From Perna viridis (lineage: Eukaryota), in the NCBI GenBank assembly GCA_037379345.1, contig CM074513.1, forward strand, positions 33,786,885 to 33,850,884: DNA of 64,000 nucleotides, given 5' to 3'. Shown in pieces: positions 39,201 to 45,200 of the stretch. The stretch's first letter is position 1. Each line of letters opens with the position of its first letter. Made by a program: the position numbers.

Positions 39201-42200
39201 TTTTTTATGCCCTTGTGACAAACAGTCAGAAGGGCATATTAATCTACCCCTGTCCATCTGTCCATTTTACTCAGAAATATATGGATCATGGCTTGCCAGC
39301 CATCTCCTTGTACAGTTTTTGAACTACATCTAAAATATTTTACAAGATATTTCTACACATGATGAAGGCGTGCTGGATCAAAGGATTTTGATTTTCATCA
39401 GAAAAAGGGCTATATGACTAGTCCGGTTATCTCCTGTAGTCTTTGAACTACATCTAAAATATTTATTGCAAGATGTTTCTATACATAATGAATGTGTGCA
39501 AGGTCATAGGATATCGATGTTTGCGGAATATTACAGAACTAGGTGATAGTTGGACTTTGGAATATTACGGAACTGGGTGATAGTTGGACTTCGGAATATT
39601 ATGGATCTGATGATATTTGGACTTTGTAGTTTTTGTCAGAAATATACCCCAAGCAAGAAAGTTAGGGATTTATTTTTGGAGATATTAACATTTTTTATGC
39701 ATCCATCAGTCTGTCCATCAGTCCTCTTTTTCTCATCGCAAGTATTTTTGCATTGCTTAGCCTAACATACCAAATATTTACTGCATCAACCAACTATACA
39801 TAACCTTTCTGAATCTGCAAACCATGTCTTTATACAAAAATAAACATGTTCTTAATTTGGCTAATCTAGCGAGCAGGGGCATCATTAGTGTCTTACAGAC
39901 ACATTTGATTTACTAAAAAAAAAATCACTACTAACAAATGATACAGGGGCTCCTGTGGCAAACAGGGCTTCTAGTTTAATGAAAGAGTCAAGTGTTGCTT
40001 TTCTGAATATATTTATAGTTGGTGTGGTTAGGAATTATGAGCTTTTTTAGATACAAATTCTTCCTTGAATACTTTAATTTTCTTCAGTCACTTTATCAGT
40101 CTTAACTCATAAAAGATTGGTGTGCAGATGCCACAGATAAAACACTGCAGTAGCTTTGTTTGATTAAATGAGTGTTCAGTACTCTGAAAGGTTCTTCAAA
40201 ATATTGCAAAAGTAATTTGGTTTCAAGTATTTGATCAGTTTGTGTGATGCTAAAAACATTTTTTTAAACTTTGTCTCAATATTTGCTGTAGATTGTTAAA
40301 GGGTGTTCTGCCATATTATTTGACAGAAACTAACCAATAAATGGCTTCAAAGAATAATAGCAACTATCAAAGACAACCAAAGCTTTAATTTATTTCAATA
40401 TACAATGCATTTCTTTCTTTAATGTGGTTTCAGTTGCATGTTACAGTCACAAAACTTCATGTTAAAAATACATTCTAATTTAATAACTTTACTTTTACTC
40501 CAGTCATTTACAAAGCTAGATAAATAATTGATATTCCTGGTTTTTCTTGATTATTTGAAATTTATGGCAGTCGTTGACAAGAATATATTTGAATAACAGA
40601 TACATGACTCAATCAATACAGATTTTATGTATTTAATTCTGAAAAGTGAAAGAAAAAAATAATGTGAAGCTTGATCAATAAAATGTCAGCCTTTCCACCA
40701 GGGCTTGTCAGGATGTGAAGGGTAATTTTGTAAAGATCATTAGTGGAAATGAGTTGAAGAGAAGATCATTTGTAGGAATCAAATGTCACTGATATAATTG
40801 TCATATTGTGTCATTAAAGCTTAGTGTCCTTGTTACCAGTGTCTAGAAAGTCTTTCTATCATTATACATCTTTTAAATGAAAAATCACTTAAGAAAAAAA
40901 AATAATAGACATTGTCGTAAAAATGGAAAATCTGAAAAACTATATTATCATATGACTTTAGTGCATGGCAGACACAAGTTATGAGACTGACAAATGGTTA
41001 AGATGACTTCCTACAAGTAGTGTTTTCTTGCAGCGAGGATGTCACTACAAAGTCATTAATGACTATTCTTTATTTGAAACAATTCAATCTCTCTGTGAAA
41101 GCCTTAGTTAGGAATCAGTCAGTATTATAGAATTTGATTTCTTTTTTTAGGGATACTTCTAAAAATATTTTTCTAAGACATTTACTCAAATTACAGATGA
41201 TGATGGTCAAAGAGGTTTTAGAAATAATTATAATATGAAATCAGGACAATAGGATGGTGGTAAACTCAGACTACACTTCCAATAATTGTTGCTGGAACAC
41301 AAATTTATAAAAGTAACTATAGATATCTATTGATTACTGGTAACCATGATTTGTCAATAATGCAATGTTTTAATATCAAGCTGAGAATTTCACAATTTAA
41401 AAAAATGTCAAAACTGTGTTGATGTTTTTTTTTTTTTTTTTTTTAAAAAGGCATATTGTTAGATATATCAATTCAATGATAATTTGAGAAATACAGCTAA
41501 GATCATTTGTTGTATCAATAACAGAAGTTGTGTAATAACAATTTGATCAGAGGCTTTTTATTCAATTTATACAAAAATGTATATGCTTTGGTTTAGATTT
41601 CATTTAACTATAGATTTATATTTGATTAAATTTTATGCCCTTGGGTCTAATTGTAGGAAGAAATATTCAATGAGTAAAAATATGACGGAATCTTTGATCA
41701 TGATTTTTCAACTCTGCTTACTTACATCATTTGGCACTTTTCTCAATGATAAATATATTTGTGCTTTTTAAGAAATGATTGACATTATACAGAAGAATAT
41801 TAATCTGATTTTCATTTTGGATTCATAAAATTTGGGTTAAACATGATATTTTTAAGTAAGCTTAAAATTGAAGTTGTAATGGAAGAATAAAAACAACTTT
41901 TACTTTTTTTCCTTTCATTTTGAAGCATTCAACAACAACAACAGCACAGTGAGATAAATGTTAGTCTATACTGTTTGTTGTAACAAAAATACAACTGTTG
42001 TTGTATGATAAAAAATACATGATAAACAAGTGAGAGTACATTAGTTACAGTGATACTGGTTGGATGTTCTATGTCATACACATTTAGAAAAACTATACTG
42101 TTGGCAAGGACCAGTGGAAACATTAAAACTGTGTAAAGAAACATTAGTTTGATGATTAATTTTGTTAATTGGATCTCTTCTCGAAGACGTCGGTTCAAAA

Positions 42201-45200
42201 TTAATGCTGTTTCTGTTCTATACTTAGCATCGATTGGCCGAGATGTATTAACACTGGTACATAATCCTATTATAGATAGAAACATAAGTAAAATGGGTAA
42301 TCCTATAAAAATACAAGTTAAGTACCAGAAATAGACAACATCATACTCAGCATGCTTGCCTGTCTCCTGTATTACTTGGTAAATGTCAGGATTTTGATCA
42401 GATTGATCCCAGTAATTATTGGTTTTTGTTCCATAATCTTCGGATGTGTGATTATTGTAATTAGTGATATCGTATTGCCAAAGACGTGGGACGGTGCTAA
42501 TCAATCCTACAATTATCACCAGACCCGAAATGATCCAGGATTGTGTTGATGATACTTGATTATAAGTCTGGTACAATGTTACAGTTAGTGTTCGCTCTAA
42601 AGCAGCAGAAAGAATAATCCAGATTATGATGTAGCGAGTCCACTCATGACAAAGAACAGAATAATATGTCATCTCTGAAATTATCTTTTCTATATAGTGT
42701 GGAAGCATTACAAATATAGATGTTATCACATGAATTAGTGTTGTTATTGACAGAACAAAGAAATATGTATCAATAGACAATCTGATTTGCTTAGCCAGCA
42801 CAACTACATTGATGACCTGTCCAAGTAAACTAAGCACCAGAATGACTGGTACCAGAACATAACAGATGTAGTTAGTGACTTCTATCCAACCCCGTGTTTC
42901 CATTGCAGTTGTGTTAAGGCACAGTATTGACAGACAGTTACGTGGGGGTAAAAGAAGCAATGGTTCCTGTGTATACTTATAGTTCCACATGTTCAAAGTC
43001 TTATATTTGATGAAAGTGAATTTTCACTGAATCAAATTCCTTGCACATGAAACTAAAACATTGATCCATTTTTCGGTATTGTGATGGAAGAAAAAACTGC
43101 CCAAAGAAATTCAGAATTTTTGTTGTAACATTTTAGATTTATTTTATCTAAATGTCCTAACAGCTTTTCTGCTGTCACTTGATGTATTTTGTTTCTGCAG
43201 TGAGAGTTTTTAGTCAATAAATCACCTGCGCTATATAGCATTGTTTGTCGTCACATGGTCATGCATTTTGCAGTAGTATGTTTATATTCTCCTGTGGTTT
43301 GGTGAAGCATGACACTAATCCATGTAGTTACAGTAGTGAACACAGAGTTTCTATTCAATTCCTATCTTAATGTCTCACAATATTTCCATATTTGGTTTTT
43401 TTTTCCTGTTGTAATTGAAAACTGTGTTGTTCCCAAGTTTCCTGATTATCATTATTGAACCCTCATATGGTAAAAATTCCCAATAGTTTTGACATATTCA
43501 TGTTACGTCTCAGCAAAGTAATTAAGTGAACATTTTCTGTATCCTTTGATGACATTGTAAACCTTTTGCTCTTTTTTTCCAGTTTTTTATCAAATAAATT
43601 CTGCATTGGTTTACGTTCTGTAATTGTAAATAACATCAACAGATAGATGAATAGATGAGACTTTTCTCTACAATCACTGTAATTTAATCCTGGGTTTCTT
43701 TTATTTCCAATTGTATCATGAGGAAAGCCAATATTTTTTCTCTGTTAATATGCTTAGAATAAGACAGCTTATAGTAGTAACAGTCATTTCACATAATTTC
43801 TAGGGTATTGAATTATTTCTCTGCCAATAAAACATTTTAACATAAATAAAGACCATATTTGACATTTGCTAACCTGGTAGTGGACAATATTCAAACCTTG
43901 ATAGGTTGGTGGAATATTGATGTTTGAGTGAAAATGAAACATTGCATGGTCAGACATTTTTCTTTGGAACCATTTTTCTATCACTTATCAGTTCTTATTA
44001 TTCCCTTGTGGAACGACTTTAAATGAAGTATTTAATTGTATGCTATCTGTCAGTCATTGAAATTAGATTCCAATGCAATTTTTTCCCAGATATTTATAGA
44101 AAGGAAATCAGCAGACCTTTCATTTATTTTGTCTTGTTCAGATTATTTTTCAATACAAGTACTTGTAAAATACATTTAAAGGTGTATCCTTGGGAGGATA
44201 GAGCAAGACTTTGTTCTTAATGTGAAATGTGATGTTATGGTGAGATGTTCAGAACTGATATTATTCTGTTGATAGGTGACATCATAGTTGATTTAAGGCA
44301 TAATAAGCCAATATTTTTTCAGTAACTTATTACTAGTTATTTGAAATTGAAAACATAAAATTTATTTATCAAGTTAGTCTTGTCACTGCTTATTAAGATT
44401 TGATAACTCTTTTATACTGTAAAATTTTCATTATGGGTAGGTAAAGTGAAGGAACCAGAAAAATATGCATGCTAATACATCAAGATCTGAATTGGACTTT
44501 TATATGAAATGAAATTTTAGAAACAGACACGTTGGATTGTTTTACTTTTAACAACTTTAGTTATTGAAGTTCAATAAGTCTTTGGTTAGATAAAGCTTCT
44601 TCAGTGGCTCAGTGAATAAGATGTGAAAGTGTCGAGAAAGATTTGTCATTTTAATGATAAATGGATATAAATGCTTTCATATGGCAAAGATTTATTGTTT
44701 AAGAAGGAGAAAAAGAAATACTCTTCTCTCATTTGTTTCTATAAGTGTTTGAATAATTGCATTAGCAGTCAAAACTTAAAGAGATAGAGATTGATTATAC
44801 TTCAGTGACTGAAATGCAAGGAAACCAATATAAGCTACTTAATGTATAGTGCAGTAAATTGTAAGATAATGTATAAAATGATCATTTAATACTCAATGAT
44901 TTAGTAGTGTGTCTTTTACATTCATTTATAAATTAGAGAGTGTATAGTTTTTTTTCTTGTCATTTCATCTCTTTGTAGAAAATAAAAGGCAAGTTAATAA
45001 AGCTATTTATTGTGTTTTGGAATTAATTGTCTGTTTTTATATGTCCCTATTACAAAATGTTATGTGATATCATGAGTATGGAAAGTGAAGATAAAACTCC
45101 TGTTGAATAATTTAAAAAAAAAAGAGAGAGATATGTTCAGTTTATATCAAATTGAGCCCTGAAAATAAATTTTGTAACATCATTGGGGACATTGCATAAT

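What the first reader, a model, noticed from the sequence alone, without database searches (positions are those of the whole stretch)
41929..42990. Intact orphan GPCR nested antisense inside a motile-cilia dynein assembly gene
Seen: an uninterrupted 7TM ORF on the opposite strand in the largest DNAAF9 intron (37822-47796). The surrounding ~7 kb has few recognisable transposons compared with other introns, which suggests constraint from UTRs or regulatory DNA. Inference: a host/nested gene pair that may be co-regulated or mutually exclusive in ciliated cells, for example a chemo- or peptide sensor of gill or larval ciliary bands.
Basis: partly seen in the sequence, partly recalled or inferred. 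Interest (0 to 1): 0.65.

Follow-up and report, generated by a model that had tools for sequence, protein, structure and literature searches.

The report
Conserved orphan GPCR nested in DNAAF9
An intact, single-exon gene for an unusual orphan G-protein-coupled receptor sits backwards inside an intron of a mussel's ciliary dynein-packaging gene, an arrangement that is old and shared with other bivalves, but nothing yet shows that the two genes work together.

Summary
An uninterrupted 353-codon ORF lies at 41929-42990 (-) and is the longest ORF in the window.

The protein misses Pfam 7tm_1 on its own. Several results still place it as a divergent class A, peptide-receptor-like GPCR: seven hydrophobic segments, a family profile hitting only class A receptors in PDB, hhalign at 99.7% to bona fide 7tm_1/Srw receptors, and an AF2 model matching NPY/CCK/NMU receptors.

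It belongs to a compact bivalve clade with one gene per named lineage. The clade has odd invariant motifs: N-terminal EPLLLLPPRxC, ER[T/S] in place of DRY, QQxLY in place of NPxxY, no D2.50, and a C-terminus ending in CCCCC.

The arrangement is not species-specific. In Mytilus edulis the ortholog's accession lies between two DNAAF9 half-models that break at the same intron. In the unionid Potamilus the two genes have locus tags two apart on one scaffold.

Transcription, co-regulation, a ciliary role and the ligand remain untested. The "few transposons" claim is not clearly supported. Overall this is a new member of known kinds, of moderate interest.

The parts
41929..42990 (-). Complete coding sequence of the nested receptor, 353 codons plus a TGA stop, in a single coding exon
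   Evidence: The start column coincides with the Mytilus ortholog's start in alignment A1.
42988..42990 (-). Start codon ATG in the context gaacATGt, with A at -3
43024..43026 (-). In-frame TGA 11 codons upstream of the ATG, so the reading frame cannot extend further 5' in this DNA
   Evidence: The stop-to-stop frame is 41932-43023.
43231..43237 (-). TATATAG box 247 nt upstream of the ATG. This is a candidate core promoter, identified by inference only.
   Evidence: Sequence reading only; no transcript data.
41557..41562 (-). AATAAA 367 nt downstream of the stop. This is a candidate poly(A) signal, by inference only. A second candidate, ATTAAA, lies at 41374-41369, and a genomic A20 run lies at 41444-41425.
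37822..47796 (+). Host intron of DNAAF9 (9,975 bp, GT...AG) that contains the receptor gene
37740..37821 (+). DNAAF9 exon 5' of the host intron (...VCHGVTPNGPISCSRTYFLTEFSDPLY). It aligns to M. edulis DNAAF9 residues 326-355.
47797..47833 (+). 37-nt DNAAF9 micro-exon 3' of the host intron (GKSGMPSEDEEAR). It matches M. edulis DKSGSPSEDEETR.
   Evidence: (weak HSP, E 0.71, colinear)
11948..64000 (+). Host gene DNAAF9 (Shulin, C20orf194). The window holds the exons for about residues 1-703 of roughly 1165, and the gene continues past the window end.

Best explanation
This is a functional protein-coding gene with a single coding exon. It encodes a divergent rhodopsin-class (class A) orphan GPCR of the peptide-receptor-like, Srw-related branch. 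It lies on the opposite strand inside the DNAAF9 intron that interrupts the host protein at about residue 355.

Shown here:
- The ORF is intact.
- The topology is 7TM with an N-terminal N-x-T sequon.
- There is profile and fold homology to class A peptide receptors.
- The protein belongs to a compact bivalve clade that behaves as one ortholog per lineage.
- The frame would not survive neutral decay.
- The gene's association with DNAAF9 is shared with Mytilus (same intron) and with a unionid (adjacent or nested).

Inferred:
- It is transcribed from its own promoter, with a TATA-like box 247 nt upstream and an AATAAA 367 nt downstream.
- It binds an endogenous ligand, most probably a peptide, rather than environmental odorants.
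- Its activation chemistry is atypical. R3.50, P5.50, P6.50 and Y7.53 are kept. The polar network N1.50/D2.50/N7.49-P7.50 is replaced by Q58/T84/Q330-Q331. Position 6.48 is Met. The protein ends at a CCCCC cluster right after helix 8, so it has no C-terminal tail.
- The nesting most likely persists because a gene inside an intron is hard to remove without harming the host. Functional coupling to ciliary dynein assembly is not needed to explain it.
For: ORF: 353 aa, the longest in the window, against shuffle maxima of 81-138 aa in 30 shuffles.

Topology: seven hydrophobic segments.

Sequence homology: the family profile against PDB sequences gave 29 of 29 hits at E<=1 that are class A GPCRs, 6 of them at E<=0.001. 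The best is neuromedin-U receptor 1 at 5.7e-5, aligned from TM1 to helix 8. hhalign of the family (A1) against 12 receptors that match 7tm_1 and Srw strongly (A2) gave 99.7% probability, E 1.8e-25, over 312 columns. A2's best PDB relatives are the ghrelin, CCK-A, TRH, neurotensin and NMU receptors, from 3.9e-33.

Fold: the AF2 model has pLDDT 67 and pTM 0.66, with 7 helices, an ECL2 hairpin and helix 8. All 50 listed Foldseek PDB hits are class A receptors, mostly peptide or chemokine receptors. The best is NPY Y4 at 1.9e-7, with target-normalised TM 0.60-0.78.

Family size: 21 representatives at E<=1e-30 among 1.84 billion.

Tree: the core clade has 100/99 support, with unionid, scallop, pearl-oyster and mytilid groups each separate. 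The window protein is sister to Mytilus at 97/86.

Constraint: simulated neutral substitution left the frame stop-free in 4 of 1000 runs at 83% identity and 0 of 1000 at 69%. Helix identity exceeded non-helix identity in 9 of 9 comparisons.

Synteny: M. edulis CAG2257215.1 is DNAAF9 residues 366-1165, CAG2257216.1 is the GPCR ortholog, and CAG2257217.1 is DNAAF9 residues 1-352, all on a contig of 3,264,085 bp. RefSeq has XP_071171400.1 (DNAAF9) and XP_071171411.1 (GPCR) on one 100,079,844-bp contig. Potamilus has CHS0354_004450 (DNAAF9) and CHS0354_004452 (GPCR) on a 2,720,029-bp contig.
Against: The protein itself matches no Pfam family, even at E<=1. Only 2 of the 10 members of alignment A1 match 7tm_1.

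Several class A hallmarks are absent: D2.50, W6.48 and NPxxY. Canonical G-protein signalling is therefore not assured.

Model confidence is moderate (pLDDT 67). It falls below 50 for residues 1-32 and 178-203.

No transcript evidence was obtained. The near-identical database proteins lie on short contigs that are colinear with the genome, which says nothing about expression.

dN/dS could not be computed because no ortholog DNA was reachable.

In Pinctada the accessions of the two genes are about 600 apart, so close linkage is not universal, or that homolog is not the ortholog.
Confidence: 0.8

Rival explanations
1. The host and nested genes are functionally coupled. Antisense transcription of the receptor inside DNAAF9 would regulate the host, or be regulated by it, through shared enhancers or transcriptional interference. 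The receptor would act in multiciliated cells, for example by tuning ciliary beating.
For: The association with DNAAF9 is old. It is at the same intron in Mytilus and adjacent in a unionid. Both genes lie on contigs of the same length in Argopecten and Pinctada. The same holds in the annelid Owenia for an outer-shell relative. About 4.7 kb around the ORF (40.8-45.5 kb) has no intra-window repeats.
Against: There are no expression data of any kind here. For most mammalian host/nested pairs there is neither a positive nor a negative expression relationship, whatever the orientation (PMC11694760, passages). Old conserved antisense nests exist without known host coupling, such as LRRTM in alpha-catenin (PMC3933685, abstract). 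Repeat content of the intron is not distinctive: 0.08 against 0.02 and 0.18 for the other large introns. Persistence of a nest is expected from the difficulty of losing it. This last point is recalled from the nested-gene literature and comes from no call.
Confidence: 0.12
2. It is an environmental chemosensory receptor of the kind that forms lineage-specific expansions in molluscs.
For: The atlas feature search puts mollusc clusters auto-named 'Chemosensory receptor A', and Srw-type clusters, among the nearest neighbours at scores of 0.96 (leads only). Relatives match Pfam Srw, a family named after nematode chemoreceptors. ECL2 is hypervariable, with 0.03-0.33 identity.
Against: Chemosensory class A receptors in bivalves form tandem lineage-specific expansions without cross-order orthologs, whereas endogenous-ligand receptors form conserved orthogroups (PMC11886862, passages). 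This clade is small, tracks the lineages one gene each, and is well conserved from unionids to mytilids. No second copy lies in the 64-kb window.
Confidence: 0.08
3. It is an atypical, non-canonical 7TM protein: a decoy, a constitutively active receptor, or one activated by its own conserved N-terminus, rather than a conventional ligand-gated G-protein coupler.
For: The N1.50/D2.50/N7.49-P7.50 network is replaced by Q/T/Q-Q and W6.48 by Met. There is no C-tail after the CCCCC cluster. The N-terminal motif (residues 8-24) has 0.53-0.82 identity in the 8 full-length comparisons, more than the helices overall. ECL2 is nearly unconserved.
Against: R3.50, P5.50, P6.50, Y7.53 and the helix-8 basic residue are invariant, which would be hard to explain without activation-related constraint. 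The reference group A2 also lacks P7.50 and W6.48 (N-F-x-L-Y and C-Q-x-P in its consensus) yet resembles conventional peptide receptors. The N-terminus is modelled at pLDDT below 50, so there is no structural support for docking.
Confidence: 0.15
4. It is a chance ORF, or a decaying retrocopy or pseudogene with no function.
For: It is intronless, sits in an intron, and has no Pfam hit of its own.
Against: The ORF is far beyond chance length. It has orthologs of the same length with the same start and end in other bivalves. The frame survives neutral simulation in 4 of 1000 runs or fewer. Conservation is structured by helix and motif.
Confidence: 0.02

Closest known systems
Class A peptide receptors of the ghrelin / neuromedin-U / neurotensin / CCK / NPY group
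   Same: They share the 7TM fold with an ECL2 beta-hairpin and helix 8. The best sequence-profile hit is NMUR1, and the best fold hits are NPY Y4, CCK1R, ETB, NMUR2 and QRFPR. R3.50, P5.50, P6.50, Y7.53 and a Cys cluster after helix 8 are retained.
   Different: Identity in the fold alignments is only 10-16%. The protein itself has no Pfam 7tm_1 hit. D2.50, W6.48 and N7.49-P7.50 are replaced. It has no C-terminal tail and carries a unique conserved N-terminal EPLLLLPPRxC motif. The ligand is unknown.
Invertebrate ERY / N-F-x-L-Y class A receptors that match both Pfam 7tm_1 and 7TM_GPCR_Srw (alignment A2, e.g. UniRef100_T1JCS4 of Strigamia)
   Same: Homology is clear by hhalign: 99.7%, E 1.8e-25, TM1 to helix 8. 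Both groups lack P7.50 and W6.48. An outer shell linking the two groups, found in annelids (Owenia, Capitella), matches Srw.
   Different: A2 keeps N1.50, D2.50, ERY and N7.49 and has long C-tails (400-570 aa). The bivalve clade has Q/S-T/ER[TSA]/Q-H and ends at CCCCC. I recalled a possible kinship of A2 with FMRFamide-type receptors, but no call named the group, so I do not assert it.
Conserved opposite-strand nested pairs such as LRRTM1-3 in alpha-catenin introns, or Mcph1/Angpt2
   Same: In each case a compact membrane-protein gene lies antisense in a large conserved intron of an unrelated host and is kept over long evolutionary time (PMC3933685 abstract; PMC11694760 passages).
   Different: The phylum, host (a ciliary dynein packaging factor) and nested gene (a GPCR) all differ. 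Conservation here is inferred from annotation order, not from coordinates.

Membership tests
Class A (rhodopsin-like) GPCR | Seven transmembrane helices with an extracellular N-terminus | tested here: met
   There are seven hydrophobic segments and seven helices plus helix 8 in the AF2 model. An N-x-T sequon at residue 26, following conserved Cys residues, is kept across the family.
Class A (rhodopsin-like) GPCR | Significant match of the protein itself to Pfam 7tm_1 (PF00001) | tested here: not met
   The ORF gives 0 families at E<=1. Only 2 of 10 A1 members match, the best at 1.6e-14. Of 25 further relatives, 20 match 7tm_1 and/or Srw.
Class A (rhodopsin-like) GPCR | Profile-level homology to established class A receptors over the whole 7TM core | tested here: met
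   All 29 PDB hits are class A, with NMUR1 at 5.7e-5 aligned over profile positions 55-354. hhalign gives 99.7%, E 1.8e-25, over 312 columns.
Class A (rhodopsin-like) GPCR | Class A fold | tested here: met
   Foldseek against PDB gave at least 500 matches at E<=0.001. The 50 listed are all class A, with target-normalised TM 0.60-0.78. The model is of moderate confidence (pLDDT 67).
Class A (rhodopsin-like) GPCR | E/DRY motif at the end of TM3 (R3.50) | tested here: met
   E132-R133 are invariant. Position 3.51 is T, S or A rather than Y.
Class A (rhodopsin-like) GPCR | D2.50 and the NPxxY motif in TM7 | tested here: not met
   Position 2.50 aligns to T84 (S in the consensus). N7.49-P7.50 aligns to Q330-Q331. 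Y7.53 is kept as Y334.
Class A (rhodopsin-like) GPCR | CWxP in TM6 | tested here: not met
   P292 (6.50) is invariant, but 6.48 is M290. The reference group A2 also lacks W there.
Class A (rhodopsin-like) GPCR | Ligand-dependent coupling to G proteins | not testable with these tools
   This needs heterologous expression and signalling assays.
Lineage-specific chemosensory class A expansions of Lophotrochozoa | Tandem multi-copy arrays and no orthologs across orders | tested here: not met
   The window holds a single copy. The tree shows one group per lineage from unionids to mytilids. Criteria come from PMC11886862 (passages). That paper's supplementary tables were closed and might list this orthogroup.
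Opposite-strand intronic host/nested gene pair | The nested coding sequence lies wholly within one host intron on the other strand | tested here: met
   The CDS at 41929-42990 (-) lies inside the GT-AG intron 37822-47796 of the + strand DNAAF9.
Opposite-strand intronic host/nested gene pair | The arrangement is conserved in other species | tested here: met
   In M. edulis the GPCR accession lies between DNAAF9 half-models that break at residues 352/366. In Potamilus the locus tags are 004450 and 004452 on one scaffold. This rests on annotation order and contig length, not on coordinates.
Opposite-strand intronic host/nested gene pair | Independent transcription of the nested gene | not testable with these tools
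   No expression data were reachable. TATA-like and AATAAA motifs are present but prove nothing.

The most novel reading that the evidence does not exclude
The DNAAF9/receptor pair may be an ancient functional unit, possibly lophotrochozoan in age. The receptor is an atypical class A protein with a rebuilt polar core and an ultra-conserved N-terminal peptide (EPLLLLPPRxC) that could act as a built-in, tethered agonist or as a docking element. In this reading it would be expressed in, or reciprocally to, multiciliated cells, and would link neuropeptide or mechanical input to ciliary motor supply or beating.
Probability: 0.08. Interest if true: 0.65.

Novelty: new member of a known kind. Interest (0 to 1): 0.36.

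Why it matters
It adds a well-defined, apparently undescribed orphan receptor clade to the bivalve GPCR repertoire. The clade behaves like an endogenous-ligand receptor and not like a chemosensory expansion, and its activation motifs are unusual enough to interest GPCR structural biologists.

It also gives a clean invertebrate example of an antisense nested protein-coding gene that has probably stayed with its host since before the pteriomorph-unionid split. That makes it a usable test case for whether old nests imply regulatory coupling.

For annotation there is a practical point. The nest has already caused DNAAF9 to be split into two gene models in one Mytilus edulis annotation.

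Tried and rejected
Pfam on the ORF alone gave no hit.

The 443-aa database variant P0011 looked like evidence for extra exons. It is a colinear read-through of window 43131-41803 that passes both TGA codons, consistent with a TGA=W translation. It carries no splicing information.

get_proteins gave no accession numbers.

Sinanodonta DNAAF9 was not among the 120 rows listed, so that species could not be tested.

Rfam at gathering thresholds and ARAGORN found nothing in the window.

The atlas gave only generic divergent class A, Srw and 'chemosensory' neighbours. 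I treat these as leads.

Four literature searches for a described DNAAF9 nest or this receptor clade found nothing relevant. One search listed 5 unrelated papers. One search listed 1 unrelated paper. Searches gave background only.

The DNAAF9 exons were searched singly and mapped with a Mytilus protein.

Complex prediction and the second fold job were not used, because no binding claim is made.

Full report
OBSERVATION

Under the standard code, the only ATG ORF of at least 80 aa overlapping 41000-44000 runs from 42990 down to 41929 on the - strand and is 353 aa. It is the longest ORF in the 64-kb window; the next is 243 aa. In 30 shuffles of the window the longest ORF ranged from 81 to 138 aa. 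The window contains no N and has about 32% G+C.

The start ATG has A at -3. An in-frame TGA lies 11 codons upstream, and the stop codon is TGA. A TATATAG lies 247 nt upstream of the ATG, and an AATAAA lies 367 nt past the stop. These signals are read from the sequence and are not evidence of use.

IS IT A GPCR?

The protein alone matches no Pfam family, even at E<=1, so the label had to be earned by other means.

- Topology. Hydropathy gives seven segments.
- Relatives. A word-indexed search found 10 relatives at E<=0.01 among 4293 candidates. All named ones are bivalve: Mytilus galloprovincialis and M. edulis at 69% identity, the unionids Sinanodonta and Potamilus, and Pinctada. Two of these 10 match 7tm_1, the best at 1.6e-14.
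- PDB sequences. A profile of the ten (A1) hit 29 distinct PDB sequences at E<=1, all class A receptors, 6 of them at E<=0.001. The best was neuromedin-U receptor 1 at 5.7e-5, aligned from TM1 through helix 8.
- Profile against profile. A1 against an alignment of 12 receptors that match 7tm_1 and Srw strongly (A2) gave 99.7% probability, E 1.8e-25, over 312 columns. A2's nearest solved relatives are the ghrelin, CCK-A, TRH, neurotensin and NMU receptors.
- Fold. An AF2 model built on A1 has pLDDT 67.0 and pTM 0.66. It falls below 50 for residues 1-32 and 178-203. It shows seven helices, a two-strand ECL2 hairpin and helix 8. All 50 listed Foldseek hits in PDB are class A receptors, mostly for peptides or chemokines. 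The best is NPY Y4 at 1.9e-7, and target-normalised TM is 0.60-0.78.

I conclude that it is a divergent class A receptor of the peptide-receptor-like branch. The ligand is unknown.

WHAT IS UNUSUAL IN THE PROTEIN

I mapped positions through the alignments and read residues.

Kept and invariant in the family: R3.50 (E132-R133), P5.50 (P232), P6.50 (P292), Y7.53 (Y334) and the helix-8 Arg (R342).

Replaced:
- N1.50 is Q58 (N in unionids).
- D2.50 is T84 (S in the consensus).
- Position 3.51 is T, S or A.
- Position 6.48 is M290.
- N7.49-P7.50 is Q330-Q331.

The protein ends in CCCCC directly after helix 8, so it has no C-terminal tail.

A motif near the N-terminus, EPLLLLPPRxC, followed by a second Cys and an N-x-T sequon, is nearly invariant.

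Conservation is structured. Helix identity exceeds non-helix identity in 9 of 9 comparisons. Residues 8-24 keep 0.53-0.82 identity in the 8 full-length comparisons, and TM7-helix 8 keeps 0.57-0.86. ECL2 (174-212) keeps only 0.03-0.33.

The reference group A2 also lacks P7.50 and W6.48 (N-F-x-L-Y and C-Q-x-P in its consensus), so those two losses are older than this clade.

FAMILY EXTENT

An exhaustive profile search of 1.84 billion representatives gave 743 hits at E<=0.001, 203 at <=1e-10 and 21 at <=1e-30.

Both hallmark motifs occur in P0001-P0009, P0053 and, with F in place of Y, in P0054 (Argopecten irradians XP_069140767.1). P0010 is N-terminally truncated. P0055 and P0056 each carry one motif in altered form.

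An outer shell (P0057-P0066) lacks the QQ motif and often matches Pfam Srw. It includes the annelids Owenia and Capitella.

I built a maximum-likelihood tree of 26 rows that I chose: 15 core, 7 outer shell and 4 A2 rows. P0058, P0062, P0065, P0067-P0071 and the other A2 rows were left out. The tree supports the core clade at 100/99. Within it are a unionid group (100/100) and a pteriomorph group (100/100), the latter holding separate scallop, pearl-oyster and mytilid groups. The window-like protein is sister to Mytilus (97/86).

Each named species appears once. That is the pattern of a conserved ortholog, not of a lineage-specific expansion. A pan-lophotrochozoan study describes chemosensory class A receptors as tandem lineage-specific expansions without cross-order orthologs, and endogenous-ligand receptors as conserved orthogroups (PMC11886862, passages read). 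Its supplementary tables were closed and may list this orthogroup.

CONSTRAINT

No ortholog DNA was reachable, so dN/dS was not computed.

As a substitute, I applied random substitutions with the window's base composition to the ORF until amino-acid identity fell to a target. At 83%, about half the Mytilus distance, the frame stayed stop-free in 4 of 1000 runs. At 69% it did so in 0 of 1000. Indels were ignored, which makes the test lenient.

Orthologs keep the same length, start and end. Together these results argue for purifying selection on the reading frame.

THE HOST GENE

Pfam DAAF9_N and DAAF9 models hit + strand frames on both sides of the ORF. I scanned all 197 + strand frames of 45 aa or more, but only 66 of the 216 - strand frames, the longer ones.

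One single exon (window 23151-23528, residues 60-125 of the frame) retrieved 12 DNAAF9 proteins at E<=0.001 among 14 candidates. tblastn of M. edulis DNAAF9 (XP_071171400.1, 1165 aa) against the window gives a colinear series from 11948-12022 (residues 1-25) to 63182-63277 (residues 672-703). The gene continues beyond the window.

The intron holding the receptor has its GT at 37822 and its AG ending at 47796. The flanking exons are 37740-37821 and a 37-nt micro-exon at 47797-47833, which encodes GKSGMPSEDEEAR.

DNAAF9 (Shulin) is described as a packaging chaperone that holds outer dynein arms inactive until they reach cilia (abstracts seen in the search listing).

IS THE NEST SPECIES-SPECIFIC? 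NO.

- Mytilus edulis, GenBank. Three consecutive accessions lie on a contig of 3,264,085 bp. CAG2257215.1 aligns to DNAAF9 residues 366-1165. CAG2257216.1 is the receptor ortholog. CAG2257217.1 aligns to DNAAF9 residues 1-352. The host model is thus broken at the very intron that hosts the ORF here (residues ~355/~366), with the receptor in between.
- Mytilus edulis, RefSeq. DNAAF9 is XP_071171400.1 and the receptor is XP_071171411.1. Both are on a contig of 100,079,844 bp.
- Potamilus streckersoni (a unionid). DNAAF9 is CHS0354_004450 and the receptor homolog is CHS0354_004452. Both are on a contig of 2,720,029 bp. This means nested or adjacent; the data cannot say which.
- Argopecten and Pinctada. 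Receptor and DNAAF9 lie on contigs of identical length, 43,197,688 and 71,201,966 bp. In Pinctada the accessions are about 600 apart.
- Owenia (an annelid). An outer-shell relative and DNAAF9 share a contig length of 42,456,855 bp. This is suggestive only, with roughly a one-in-a-dozen chance per species if genes are spread evenly over chromosomes. That estimate is my own and comes from no call.

Caveats. Contig identity is inferred from identical lengths, and order from accession or locus-tag numbering. That the pteriomorph-unionid split is early Palaeozoic is recalled and comes from no call.

THE 'FEW TRANSPOSONS' CLAIM

In a window self-comparison, the host intron has 8% of its bases in intra-window repeats. 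The window as a whole has 12.7%, and the two other large introns have 2% and 18%. The stretch 40.8-45.5 kb has none, while 38.8-39.8 kb has 57%. The intron holds one 34-bp tandem array at 39525-39626.

No TE protein domain was found in the frames scanned in this intron, whereas intron 24891-32673 holds a LINE-like RT and endonuclease remnant.

Without a repeat library this remains a weak proxy. It does not single out the host intron.

HOW IT MOST LIKELY WORKS

Shown: an intact, constrained single-exon gene for a divergent class A receptor that has been associated with DNAAF9 for a long time.

Inferred:
- The gene has its own promoter and poly(A) site on the - strand.
- The ligand is endogenous and probably a peptide. 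This rests on fold neighbours, the ECL2 hairpin and one-to-one orthology.
- Activation chemistry is atypical because the polar core is rebuilt.
- There is no tail-dependent desensitisation.

The nest itself needs no functional explanation. In mammals most host/nested pairs show neither positive nor negative expression correlation, regardless of orientation (PMC11694760, passages). Old antisense nests such as LRRTM in alpha-catenin are known (PMC3933685, abstract).

Coupling to cilia remains an open, testable idea with no evidence for it here.

NOVELTY

Databases carry the orthologs only as uncharacterized proteins or as 'G-protein coupled receptors family 1 profile domain-containing protein'.

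Four full-text searches found no paper describing a DNAAF9 nest or this receptor clade. Most subscription-journal papers and all supplements were not searchable.

I rate it a new member of known kinds, namely orphan class A GPCRs and conserved antisense nested genes. It has an unusual motif set and is of moderate interest.

WHAT STAYED UNCHECKED

- Transcription and cell type.
- dN/dS.
- Coordinates of the orthologs in other genomes.
- Repeat annotation.
- Metagenome contigs and viral contigs, which were closed.
- Supplements, which were closed.

Noticed in passing
window 1764-5740 (+): Another gene lies upstream of DNAAF9 on the + strand. A frame at 5459-5740 encodes a C-terminal RING finger (Pfam zf-C3HC4_3, E 9.2e-16). 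Its closest solved RINGs are MDM2, cIAP and MUL1. Long open frames at 1764-2522 (253 aa) and 4938-5438 (167 aa) may be further exons. They have no Pfam match above the curated cut-off (a sub-threshold 0.0015 hit for 1764-2522, none for 4938-5438).
   Followed up: partly
window 28456-30351 (-): A LINE-like retroelement remnant lies in DNAAF9 intron 24891-32673. It has RVT_1 (E 2e-11) at 28456-28866 and a weak endonuclease/exonuclease/phosphatase hit (E 0.0034, below cut-off) at 29899-30351. The frames between them are broken.
   Followed up: partly
window 16472-18081 (-): A run of consecutive open frames in different phases lies in DNAAF9 intron 1 (16797-17510 is 238 aa, followed by 17308-17634, 17507-17827 and 17831-18061). 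None has a Pfam match above the curated cut-off (one sub-threshold 0.0096 Neurokinin_B hit at 17831-18061). The atlas gives only weak neighbours (score 0.90 or less), some tied to retroelement HTH/RT clusters. It is probably a decayed mobile-element ORF, but this is not established.
   Followed up: partly
window 39198-39978, 49149-49699, 54893-55215, 56289-56734: An interspersed repeat family with units of about 130-200 bp at 77-90% identity is shared among four DNAAF9 introns, including the host intron. It partly forms local tandem copies, such as the 34-bp array at 39525-39626.
   Followed up: partly
window 57156-58824: This intron is 80% covered by intra-window repeats. A 283-aa stop-free + strand frame (58034-58882) and several - strand frames give only low-complexity, zero-stretch Pfam noise. 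It looks like a satellite or tandem array rather than coding sequence.
   Followed up: no
window 60539-60694 (+): There is a weak match to the hAT-family C-terminal dimerisation domain (E 0.0011, below cut-off), possibly a DNA-transposon fragment in a DNAAF9 intron.
   Followed up: no
window 42013-42015 (codon 326 of the receptor): The near-identical database protein P0001 differs from the window ORF at one residue, F326 here against L there. This is presumably a polymorphism within the species.
   Followed up: no
public annotation, not the window: One Mytilus edulis annotation splits DNAAF9 into two gene models (354 aa and 800 aa) on either side of the nested receptor and loses the micro-exon between residues 352 and 366. 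This is an annotation artefact caused by the nest.
   Followed up: yes
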